A stretch of DNA of 63,304 nt, filler included, from Collodictyon triciliatum (lineage: Eukaryota), in NCBI GenBank assembly GCA_043381765.1. It is 5 parts of 5 records of this genome, joined end to end, with 100 filler letters (N's around TTAATTAATTAA, not from the genome) between each part and the next. Parts side by side here need not be neighbours in the genome. Positions count along the whole stretch, not along the records: positions 1 to 13,166 come from JBHJMP010002042.1; positions 13,267 to 26,424 come from JBHJMP010002043.1; positions 26,525 to 39,682 come from JBHJMP010002044.1; positions 39,783 to 52,922 come from JBHJMP010002045.1; 1 more part is not named here. The stretch is one strand, 5' to 3'. Made by a program: the position numbers and the translations under genes. The notes below the pieces were generated by a model. It was not told the DNA's origin and ran no database searches. It saw nothing but the letters and a program-made list of their open reading frames with translations. Below, one piece after another: positions 243 through 48,990 of this stretch (the first letter of the stretch is position 1; every line of letters starts with the position of its first letter).

Positions 243-3200
243 ACAAAGTGATCACTCAACTAAAACAAGAAAAAGCCAGAGCAGATCAAAAGATACAACA
301 ATATGCATTTGAAATGGACCTACAAATTGCCTCTCTTCGCTCTCAGCTTGTTTCAAGTAAGCCTGTATACTAATTCAATATTTACTATATATGTCACTTG
401 TAAAAAAGCTATTCAATATGGACTTATTAGGAAATATTTTCATTATCTAAAATTATTTCAAACTATGCTCTAAATTTTGTGAATACAATTGTATTTTTTT
501 TTAAAAGGAAAGAAAAGAATTAATCATTACAAATACATTAAGCTGAAAGGCAAATGAGGAAACAAAAAATCCAACTCCAAAAGACTTATGAAGAAAGTTG
601 CAGCTCTGTCGTTACGAAAAAGGCTAATGAGGTATATTTTTGGTATGAAGAGGTCCAATCATGTGCTATCCACTACCTATTCACAAATATATCTTTCAAA
701 GTTTCAAGAGGATTATGAAAATTTTCGGTCTATGATGGAGAGCGAGCGAAATGCGCTCATAAGCGACTATGAAACCACTATCGAGCGACTTGAAGAACAA
801 TTAAAAAAGGTTTATCTTTTCTATCGTGCTCCATGATAGCTAGTCCTTTATTTGGAGTTTTACATTTTCTTTTGATAATTTTGAAATTGACCTTTACTAT
901 CTCCCCGACTTTTAATATACTGAACAGTTTTCTGAACCGAGAGATGACAGCGAATTAATAGCTCGAATAAGATCTGAATATGAACCTAAAATTAAAGACC
1001 TTACAGATAAATGCATGGAGGTGAAAACTTAGACGTTTCTACAAACTCAATTTTATTCAGAAAAGCCCACAAAGACGGGAATACTTTTTTTCGTTTTATT
1101 TTAAATTCAAACAGTGTTTACTTTGAATCGAATAAAGGAAAAAAATTCAAACAGTGTTTATGATTAATACTTATTTCTTCAATTTAGCTCGAAATAGCGT
1201 TGGCACAAAGACCAGTAAATTCTGTCATAATTCGAAGCATATTTTTTAAATGTGTTTTTTTTTTCGATCTCTAACTATTTTTTTTTATGACACATAAAAA
1301 GCTACAAAGCTCAGGTTCCAAAAGAACAACAAAGACACCCGAAACACCATCAAAAGAGACAAGACGCCCTTTGAGTATGTCTCAATGATTACGGAATTAA
1401 TAATATTTTACGAAATATGCCAACATCTTCACCGTCCTGCACACAATTGAAAGGAAGAAAAAAATATTTTACGAAATATCGATTCATACGAATGTCTTTT
1501 CTTTCAGCATAAAAGCTAATTTCATCACGATTTTTTTCTGCGAAGGTCAAACATCTACATTATCTCGACGGTCTTCAAAAATTAAGGTATGTCCCATAAT
1601 CCTACGGGCATTAATGCATAGAGCACATCAACAACAATTATCACCTTGATGCACTATATGATGCAGCTAATTACAAATCACACAAACTTAACATCGCTTT
1701 CAACATCGCAGACACCTCCAGCGGTTACAAGACCAGTATTATTTACACTTTAAAACCTATGAAATGAAGTTATTGCTATAATTCCTTTCCTATTCCTTTC
1801 AGTTTGTGCAACATGAGAGGCGGTAGCCTTGATTTATTTCATGTTTTATGCGCTCCTTTATAATTTGAATTCATGGGTTCGCGGTCAATCTTAGGATTCC
1901 AAAACACCAGAGAAGAAGAACAGACTTCGAGATAAGATAAGAAATAAGCTTATGCCTCGGTTATCTGCTAACCAGACGGAAGAGCAGGTTTTCTTCTTCT
2001 TTCTTTTTTCTAGAAAAAAAAAAGAAAAAAGTAGCAAGCATGTTGAATTTAAGATGTGGTAAGGAAATCAATATACTACGACAGGTTTCCAATATGATAT
2101 TTTCATATTTAGAAGCAAATATCCGTGATGCAATTCGAAATGGAGGGTCTTCGTAATTCTTTGTCAGAAGCGAAGGTCACTATGAAGCAAAATGCGATTC
2201 ACTTTATCTGATCATTTTGTTGTCTTATTTAAATATGTTTGTCTGTGATTGAAGTCAGCTTGATTGGGCTTAAATGATGATATATTATTCATTTACTTGA
2301 ACAGGCAAAAAACGAAGCTATGCAATTAGAGCTCCTCAAGGTATCTCGTGCCCAACGAGAGGAAGAAGACAGACGTACAGCAGCATTTTCTCTTAAAATT
2401 TTACTCACGAATAAGAATGTTTACTTTCCCCCGTAAAATATATTATGCAGCATTACACATTTCTTTTAAATTGTAGTGAGGATAGCTTATGAAGAATTTG
2501 CCTCTCGTGGCCAACAAACTATGAAATCCATGGTTGCAAAGACAGAGAATACATTGAAAGTATGTCATGAGATACTTATTTGCTGATAGCTTATCTCTGT
2601 GCGTATATATCCCACTTGGTCGATTAATATGCATGCTTATCATCTATAGACTTACGAAACGGATTTGAATCTCAAACTAGTGAAACTTGAGTATATTTGC
2701 CACTTTATTCCTTTATTTTACATGCCCGATACGGCTTTTTCAAGTCATTGAAAGTAGGAAGCAATGCACATATTCATCTAATTTAAAATAAACGGGCAGG
2801 TCAGATGTGCAACGAAAGCAAAAAGAAGCGATCAAGATATATGAGGATTTAAACAAGGTAATTATATTCTACGTTGTCTGGACCTTCATGGAATGAAATA
2901 AGATTGTATATTACATGATTATTTATATATGTCGGTGCACTTTAAAGAATTTATATTGATATGACATTACATATATCATTTTAATAATATGCAGAAGGAA
3001 GATACGAGAGAGTTGGATGAAAAGTCTCTCGATAAATTAAGAAAAGTTTATGAAAAAACTGTGGATGAAATATCATTAAATTTTTCCTCCAAAATCCAAG
3101 CCGTGCTTAATAGGTACTCTTATGATTACTAAAATTTAACTATGAATACACTATTGTTTGGAAGATAATAACCAACTGAAGACAACGTGTATATTCATAC

Positions 3201-47727: not shown

Positions 47728-48990
47728 AAATAGAAGGAGATATGGAAATGGGTATGCATGTGCTGGGCGAATTACAGACACGCGCGCGGAAGGCACGGGC
47801 CGATCACCGTGCACCCGCCCGCACGCACGCAATCACAGTCGCGAGCCGATCACCGTGCGGGTCCAATCGCAACCCCCGGCGTGGCTCTCCCACACAGACT
47901 CAGACACAGGCACATACACAACACAACACCGCCCGTGCGCCTGTGGACATCCTCCTCGCTGGTGTGATGCTTGGGGCCGCCTGCAGGCACGGGAGGCACC
48001 TATGTGTTAGAACGCCTGGAATGGCAAATCTCAGTGCTATGTGTTTGCACGTATATATATCCCTGTGCTTAACTGGCAGGTGTTGTGGGCGCGTGTCCCT
48101 CTTTGCCTTCTCTGCATTTACCTTTGGTTTATTTGGTGGTGTTGTTGTTTTTCTTTTTGTTTTTCTGGAATAGGCGCATTCGCGTGCGGCTGTTCGGTAG
48201 GCGTTAAGCAATTAAATAAAGAAAAAAAAAAGAGGAAATCCTATAATTATTGTTTTGTTTTGTTTTGTTTTTGTTTTTGTTTTTGTTTTTTTGGTACTGT
48301 ATTTTATTTTTGACTTGTTGAATGTTTGGTTGAAACGGAAACTTGGCACGAGCTCTGTTGTCTTTTTGTTGTGATTGGCTTTCTGCTTTTTGTTTTTCAG
48401 CCCGTTTTATTTTTTTAAACCTCTGCTTCTTGTGTGGCCAAGTATATATGGAAATTGGCCGGGTAATATTCGCACAATTAACAGATTGGTTATTTAGGAG
48501 ACATTGGTGGGAAATATCCGGGGCGTGGGCTAGACTTGTTCTTATATATACTAATTGTTCAGGTTCATGCTATTATTGATACAATAAATTATATATATGA
48601 ATTTTACAAACTAGGAATTGTAAAAGTATATAATTTCCACAATTGTAAAAGCAAAGAGCCCTTTATCTAGCGATTAATAACAAAGAAAATGTATTCAAGT
48701 CAAATATGGAAATTATAATATAAATACTTTTTACATTTATATTAAGCTATTTAATTCATATATATCGTTTTCTTATATTATATAATTAACTTATAATATA
48801 TATACACAATTCTCTTTCTTCCCACCACCCTGATTTGTGTTTACTGAGATCGTGGCCATCCTGCGATCAGCCAACACGCATCCTTTTCGCTTCCGGTCTA
48901 TTGAAAGTAAATCACTGAATATAGGACATAAAACAAAGGAATAACAAATATAAAAAGTAGCATATTACTCATAGTGGACTTGCTAGGCTT

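What the first reader, a model, noticed from the sequence alone, without database searches (positions are those of the whole stretch)
1103..47743. Family of 17-30 bp poly(A)-tailed micro-insertions with target-site duplications
Seen: six intronic copies on two contigs (1121, 40153, 41315, 43136 minus strand, 44342, 47711) share the 3' core TCGAATAAAGG-An or a close variant, differ in 5' length, and are each flanked by a different 12-18 bp direct repeat. The two perfect cases sit at TT|AAA. Known: AATAAA + poly(A) + variable 5' truncation + about 15-bp TSD at TT|AAAA are hallmarks of L1-type target-primed reverse transcription. Inference: the extreme 3' tip of a LINE or SINE, aborted after about 20 nt at high frequency (around one per 10 kb here). 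This suggests strong host restriction of reverse transcription, selection against long inserts, or a minimal element.
Basis: partly seen in the sequence, partly recalled or inferred. Interest (0 to 1): 0.75.

Follow-up and report, generated by a model that had tools for sequence, protein, structure and literature searches.

The report
Tail-tip stubs of two LINE retrotransposons
The tiny insertions are real: they are the last ~18 bases plus a short A-tail of an L1-type jumping gene, present in thousands of copies in this genome. The mechanism is ordinary, but the copies are unusually short and tend to stop at the same few bases.

Summary
Confirmed; parent found. The core is the 3' end of an L1-type LINE (endonuclease, RT, zinc finger).

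The tip 14-mer occurs 2515 times in 75 Mb (control 1); 14-mers 36 and 440 nt upstream occur 485 and 229 times. Of 96 sampled copies, 71 are ≤22 nt and 38 measure 18-19 nt; weaker peaks lie at 28 and 36. Duplications are mostly 15-18 bp at T|A sites; three paralogous empty sites exist.

Stops follow the template base, not distance from the nick. 5' microhomology is at chance level, unlike truncated human L1. I favour run-off copying of pre-shortened 3' RNA fragments (~0.45) over RT arrest (~0.3); neither is shown.

This scan already noted the same stubs in other pieces of this genome. New variant of a known process.

The parts
1103..1160 (+). Family-1 stub: duplication 1103-1120, 18-nt LINE tip 1121-1138, A-tail, duplication 1143-1160; in an intron (about 1021-1197, read by eye)
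1402..1479 (+).
13267..15400 (-). Broken 5' part (putative ORF1) of a family-2 LINE, cut by the contig end; 13267-13347 matches the ORF1/ORF2 junction of L159 at 96%. Upper boundary approximate; no Pfam match for the pieces
40137..40190 (+). Family-1 stub, 14 nt (40153-40166), exact 16-bp duplication that contains the AG|GT splice donor of a minus-strand gene
41300..41355 (+). Family-1 stub, 18 nt (41315-41332), 15-bp duplication with 3 mismatches; antisense in an intron
43120..43175 (-). Family-1 stub, 18 nt with 1 mismatch (43165-43148), A10 tail, duplication decayed (9 bp with 1 mismatch found)
44330..44378 (+). Diverged family-1 stub (44342-44366), exact 12-bp duplication, G-rich rather than A-rich tail
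47695..47743 (+). Family-1 stub, 11 nt (47711-47721) plus GG and A-tail, 16-bp duplication with 1 mismatch

Best explanation
SHOWN (about 0.95): the inserts are 3'-terminal stubs of an L1-type, APE-endonuclease LINE (family 1), and a second related LINE (family 2) makes stubs too. INFERRED from known L1 chemistry and the anatomy: the ORF2 endonuclease nicks a T|A site, the nick primes on the RNA's A-tail, 7-10 A/G bases and then the tip are copied, and a second nick 15-18 bp away gives the duplication. INFERRED from the data (about 0.8): copying ends at preferred template positions (-18/-19, less often -28 and -36 in family 1), and the 5' end is joined without needing microhomology. FAVOURED BUT NOT SHOWN (about 0.45): the RT was not interrupted but ran off the end of an already shortened RNA, i.e. 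host decay or cleavage trims LINE mRNA back to a protein-protected 3' piece, which is then copied whole and joined by template jumping.
For: Parent: 40 scored long copies at 86-100% identity, most ending in the same core plus A-tail; RVT_1 E 3e-17 and zf-RVT E 1.6e-7; endonuclease pieces upstream of RT in L160; best solved relative human L1 ORF2p E 2e-32 against R2 E 3e-19. Counts: ≥14 nt 2515, ≥18 nt 1830, ≥23 nt 531, -36 14-mer 485, -440 14-mer 229. Sample of 96 of the first 100 places: 71 at ≤22 nt, 38 at 18-19; fit to a smooth decay rejected for 14-22 nt (0 of 3000 simulations) and for 23-40 nt (P 0.0013). Duplication 15-18 bp in 79 of 100, starting with A in 93, T before it in 73. Empty paralogous sites for 3 of 125 duplication-flanked sites. 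Slope of element length on tail length -0.20±0.13 (n=29) and 0.04±0.23 (n=20), where a nick-anchored ruler predicts -1. Of 65 clean junctions 26 are blunt, 21 have microhomology and 18 have extra bases; microhomology lengths match chance. Human 5'-truncated L1 show about 80% microhomology and 14.6% extra bases, and full-length L1 chance-level microhomology (PMC2912911); R2 RT adds untemplated bases on run-off (PMC2718515).
Against: No RNA was seen, so short templates are hypothetical. Chance-level microhomology also fits RT arrest followed by blunt joining, and the few clean longer copies (43-80 nt) lack microhomology too, so it may be a trait of this element or host and not a sign of run-off. 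The secondary peaks are weaker: a maximum-based test against a fitted geometric decay gave P 0.12-0.30 for family 1 at 23-40 nt and 0.19-0.52 for family 2; a fresh family-2 sample had 5 of 20 at -42, P 0.017-0.25 depending on the assumed decay. 40 of 96 copies had no duplication at the strict score. Long copies are under-counted because young ones break contigs. Copies under 14 nt were outside the main sample; 12 of 87 tip-plus-tail matches lack the exact -14 to -11 bases. A-tails may have changed length after insertion, which blurs the ruler test.
Confidence: 0.8

Rival explanations
1. Same identity, different cause: the RT works on long RNA but stalls at template-fixed obstacles (a 3' stem-loop or a bound protein), and the short cDNA is joined bluntly.
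For: Stops follow the template. A predicted hairpin over -40 to -19 has its 3' foot at the main stop, and the common A/G variant at -21 keeps its pair. Both families carry CTGCAC and TTGAA near the end, and the first pile-up lies in or next to CTGCAC in both.
Against: The 3' 60 nt fold no better than shuffles (z -0.05). The -28 stop falls in the predicted loop. Interrupted L1 and R2 copies usually show microhomology (PMC2912911, PMC2718515), which is absent here.
Confidence: 0.3
2. Premature switch to second-strand synthesis at a fixed cDNA length measured from the nick (a ruler, perhaps once per helical turn).
For: ORF2p nicks the top strand early and premature second-strand synthesis is proposed to cause truncation (PMC7617806, passages). 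Peak spacings are 8-10 nt in both families.
Against: Element length does not shorten as the tail lengthens: slopes -0.20±0.13 and 0.04±0.23, not -1. The two families peak at different distances. Three peaks per family do not establish a period.
Confidence: 0.1
3. Insertions start with a broad length range and selection removes the long ones from a gene-dense genome with short introns.
For: Most window copies are intronic; long copies are rarer (229 against 2515).
Against: Selection on size would give a smooth decay, which is rejected for 14-22 nt. The three stubs found inside other repeats, presumably near-neutral sites, are also short (18, 32 and 22 nt). It may still add to the overall shortness; not tested directly.
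Confidence: 0.1
4. An independent minimal SINE of 18 nt that copies itself from its own source loci.
For: A shared 5' end in many copies.
Against: The sequence equals the LINE end, with a continuum of lengths from 6-11 nt to over 1.5 kb; no Rfam match at the tip; no room for a promoter; a second LINE shows its own stubs.
Confidence: 0.04
5. Library or assembly artefact.
For: The assembly is fragmented (14576 contigs) and collapses long copies.
Against: Copy-specific duplications, decayed old copies, balanced strands (1258/1257), filled against empty paralogues, and a longer copy of the same element in a metagenome contig.
Confidence: 0.01

Closest known systems
5'-truncated copies of human L1 (PMC2912911, parts 1-2 of 5 and passages read; PMC12016303, passages with Table 1; PMC7617806, passages)
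   Same: APE endonuclease + RT + C-terminal zinc finger; T|A-rich nick site; about 15-bp duplications; A-tail; most copies 5'-truncated.
   Different: Human insertions have median lengths of 394 bp (somatic) and 1240 bp (germline) and tails of 34-39 bp (PMC12016303); here most copies are ≤22 nt with 6-12 nt tails and a sharp mode. About 80% of truncated human L1 have 5' microhomology; here it is at chance. Size cut-offs matter: the PMC2912911 screen starts at 50 bp and could not see such stubs.
Truncated R1 and R2 copies of Drosophila (PMC2718515, passages)
   Same: Precise, untemplated and microhomology 5' junctions; RNA degradation is named there as one possible cause of truncation.
   Different: R1 and R2 insert at fixed rDNA sites and R2 uses another endonuclease type (recalled); most truncated R2 junctions carry 1-5 nt microhomology.
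Truncation hotspots of SVA and of tailless retropseudogenes (PMC10681720, PMC5322556, passages)
   Same: Retro-copies ending at preferred template positions; in 5S rRNA mostly in loops or single-stranded parts.
   Different: Those are non-autonomous RNAs mobilised in trans; tailless copies are cut at the 3' end. Here the LINE's own tailed tip is the product and the hotspots lie within 45 nt of it.

Membership tests
L1-type (APE) non-LTR retrotransposon | Reverse transcriptase of non-LTR type, nearer to L1 than to R2 | tested here: met
   RVT_1; PDB best hit human ORF2p E 2e-32, R2 3e-19; named database hits are labelled LINE-1 or TX1
L1-type (APE) non-LTR retrotransposon | APE-like endonuclease at the N-terminus of ORF2 | tested here: met
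   Family 1: pieces in L160, E 3e-5 and 8e-6, just under the curated cut-offs because the copy is broken. Family 2: one open frame of 745 aa with PF03372 E 2e-16 and RT in L159
L1-type (APE) non-LTR retrotransposon | C-terminal cysteine-rich zinc finger | tested here: met
   zf-RVT E 1.6e-7 in P0002
L1-type (APE) non-LTR retrotransposon | A-tail, T|A-rich target and 7-20 bp duplication | tested here: met
   empty sites
L1-type (APE) non-LTR retrotransposon | Upstream ORF1 | tested here: inconclusive
   Broken reading frames upstream of ORF2 in L160 and in window 13267-15400; no Pfam match for the window pieces
L1 clade in the strict sense (against Tx1 and others) | Placement in an RT tree with reference clades | not tested
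   No reference set at hand; similarity only
SINE | Own 5' head from tRNA, 7SL or 5S RNA with an internal promoter | tested here: not met
   Stubs consist of LINE 3' sequence only; no Rfam match at the tip in five loci
Human-type 5'-truncated L1 junction | Excess of 5' microhomology | tested here: not met
   21 of 47 with ≥1 nt against 46% by chance
Intron-generating element | Duplication enriched for AG|GT so that the insert splices out | tested here: not met
   AGGT in 7 (antisense) and 5 (sense) of 125 duplications against 3.9% background

The most novel reading that the evidence does not exclude
In this organism a host RNA-trimming step cuts LINE mRNA back to discrete, protein-protected 3' pieces that stay competent for insertion, so most retrotransposition events of at least two LINE families are disarmed into ~40-bp stubs. 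The thousands of stubs would then be a base-resolution fossil footprint of the LINE ribonucleoprotein and a natural system for the open question of why LINE copies are 5'-truncated.
Probability: 0.35. Interest if true: 0.7.

Novelty: new variant of a known kind. Interest (0 to 1): 0.45.

Why it matters
The cause of LINE 5' truncation is still debated: RT failure, RNA degradation or early second-strand synthesis (PMC2718515, PMC7617806). Here thousands of copies stop at a few defined bases and join without microhomology, in two families with different tails, so the models give different, testable predictions. Practically, inserts of about 40 bp fall under common size cut-offs (50 bp in PMC2912911), so LINE activity in such genomes may be much under-counted. 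The stubs should also make clean presence/absence markers. The element type and chemistry are textbook.

Tried and rejected
Empty alleles in public runs: one run listed (X1, share 0.08), no RNA holder listed; laying X1 on window 39800-52900 gave only scattered short contigs and no joints; uninformative.

Structured RNA origin (tRNA, snRNA, spliced leader; a lead from memory): no relevant Rfam hit; dropped once the LINE was found.

Stable 3' hairpin: z -0.05.

Intron gain: no AGGT enrichment.

tRNA-gene targeting: two of 30 copies of ≥36 nt lie just downstream of tRNA genes; too few to claim.

Strict 10-nt periodicity: spacings 8-10 nt, secondary peaks only partly significant; not claimed.

Tip pattern in other collections: 1 metagenome contig, a long copy; 0 viral contigs.

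Window 54756-55367 as a LINE piece: no match to any held locus.

Literature: nine searches listed no paper whose title or abstract start describes modal ~18-nt LINE stubs; the library lacks most subscription journals and I read no supplements, so this is weak evidence of absence.

The host lineage was not determined.

Full report
1. Observation. The window is five contigs of an intron-rich eukaryote joined by N-spacers; contig 1 is G000:C2042, in a genome of 75.4 Mb and 14576 contigs. Three have exact duplications (18, 16 and 12 bp), one has 16 bp with one mismatch, one 15 bp with three, and the minus-strand copy has only a decayed 9-bp repeat. The 14-nt tip occurs 2515 times in the genome, 1258 and 1257 by strand, against 1 for the reversed control. 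In a first sample 39 of 60 copies had a flanking duplication, against 4 of 150 control A-runs.

2. Parent element. Extending the longest copies upstream led to L049, where the core follows a reading frame by about 100 nt. That stretch found 40 scored long copies among 1184 candidates; of the 30 examined most end in the same core and A-tail. The frames carry RVT_1 and zf-RVT; endonuclease pieces lie upstream of RT in L160; the nearest solved protein is human L1 ORF2p. The close database relatives are unnamed environmental proteins at 58-73% identity, and named hits lie near 30%. Most long copies seen carry stops or frameshifts; several near-identical young copies end at contig edges, so the family is probably recent and its long copies are under-assembled.

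3. Lengths. Exact counts fall from 2515 (≥14 nt) to 1830 (≥18) and 531 (≥23); independent 14-mers at -36 and -440 give 485 and 229. These count exact matches, so substitutions lower each. In 96 of the first 100 listed places, 71 copies match for ≤22 nt and 38 for 18-19 nt; in 94 of the first 100 places of ≥23 nt, 11 end at 28 and 8 at 36. Allowing for chance extension into the flank, a smooth decay is rejected for 14-22 nt (0 of 3000 simulations) and for 23-40 nt (P 0.0013). A cruder maximum-based test supported the first (P ≤0.005) but not the second against a geometric fit (P 0.12-0.30). Shorter copies exist: 12 of 87 tip-plus-tail matches lack the exact -14 to -11 bases, and of six such cases in held loci four look like 11-nt stubs and two are point variants; a 6-nt stub and an A-only insert were also seen. 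So 18-19 nt is a true mode.

4. Insertion marks. Among 100 duplication-bearing copies, 79 have 15-18 bp duplications, 93 begin with A and 73 follow a T; my finder cannot see duplications under 9 bp. Tails are 6-14 bases, sometimes starting with extra G. Three of 125 duplication-flanked sites have an empty paralogue in the held loci: an 18-nt stub inside the RT of a LINE copy (L160; 32 hits, partly redundant loci), a 32-nt copy (L033 against L094) and a family-2 stub (L319); two further hits were self-matches.

5. Second family. A scan for any duplication-flanked A-tailed insert turned up a second tip. It belongs to a LINE about 71-75% identical in RT DNA, with endonuclease and RT in one open frame in L159. 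Its tip occurs 1029 times and a -41 to -25 motif 348 times. In 78 sampled copies lengths cluster near 20-24, 33 and 42 nt (20 of the 78 are a sub-variant measured separately). These clusters are only suggestive: P 0.19-0.52 against a geometric fit, and 5 of 20 fresh copies at -42, P 0.017-0.25. The window holds one such stub at 1419 and a broken 5' part of this family at 13267-15400. Stub formation is therefore not peculiar to one tail sequence.

6. How it stops. If a ruler ran from the nick, longer tails would give shorter elements; the slopes are -0.20±0.13 and 0.04±0.23. Of 65 clean junctions (exact element and duplication core, drawn from the two samples), 26 are blunt, 21 overlap and 18 carry extra bases; overlap lengths match chance (the chance model reuses the observed break points). 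In human L1, nearly 80% of truncated copies have microhomology and 14.6% extra bases, while full-length copies are at chance (PMC2912911; parts 1-2 of 5 and passages). R2 RT adds untemplated bases when it runs off a template, and RNA degradation is a named cause of truncation (PMC2718515, passages). The junctions thus look like completed copies of short templates. This does not exclude RT arrest with blunt joining. A predicted hairpin ends at -19, but the region folds no better than shuffles. Early top-strand nicking with premature second-strand synthesis is the structural model for human L1 (PMC7617806, passages). My odds for the cause: pre-shortened RNA 0.45, RT arrest 0.3, ruler 0.1, selection alone 0.1.

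7. Comparison and novelty. It works like, and by the tested features is, an L1-type APE LINE; strict clade placement was not tested. Human L1 insertions have medians of 394 and 1240 bp (PMC12016303, passages). Truncation hotspots are reported for SVA and tailless retropseudogenes (passages); PMC3167599 only names a program for them. Nine searches listed no report of modal ~18-nt LINE stubs (listings only). Eight earlier notes of this scan on other pieces of the same genome reach the same identification; I had reached it before opening them, they are not independent support, and one gave me the PMC2912911 lead. Beyond what the lines shown of those notes state, this report gives genome-wide counts, secondary peaks, the second family, junction statistics and empty sites.

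8. Verdict. Real, explained as to identity, open as to why copying ends where it does. New variant of a known kind; interest 0.45.

Noticed in passing
L110 (tRNA-Glu 2096-2167, minus) and L123 (tRNA-His 1146-1230, plus): Two longer family-1 copies (597 and 296 nt) begin 16-21 nt downstream of a tRNA gene in the same orientation; could be chance T-rich targets, tRNA targeting, or the seed of a tRNA-LINE SINE.
   Followed up: partly
window 40137-40190: The duplication copies the last exon bases and the splice donor of a minus-strand TPR-like gene, leaving a GT...AG segment of 38 nt followed by a second donor; use of the second donor would shift the frame.
   Followed up: partly
L030, L043, L046, L128 and others: Some copies have a T-run in place of, or right after, the A-tail; unexplained.
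   Followed up: no
L036, L085, L089: Stubs inserted directly into or beside the tail of another copy, in either orientation.
   Followed up: no
L284, L298, L301, L324, L338, L354: A family-2 sub-variant with a C-run at about -35 to -40; none of its 20 sampled copies shared more than 39 nt with another, so its parent was not seen.
   Followed up: partly
window 54756-55367 (+): 203-aa frame with no Pfam hit and no match to the held LINE loci.
   Followed up: partly
window 9710-12052 (-), 23069-25162, 26910-29702, 31558-33111, 33455-35332: Long uninterrupted frames in an otherwise intron-rich genome: glycosyltransferase family 92, pentapeptide + WD40, a 930-aa WD40 frame, a kinase, and a 625-aa frame without Pfam hit.
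   Followed up: no
L049 1071-1445 (-) and L094: Frames that resemble the C-terminal zinc ribbon of TnpB/Fanzor proteins (weak Cas12f1-like_TNB hit, E 0.085, for L049; L094 by eye only) next to LINE copies.
   Followed up: no
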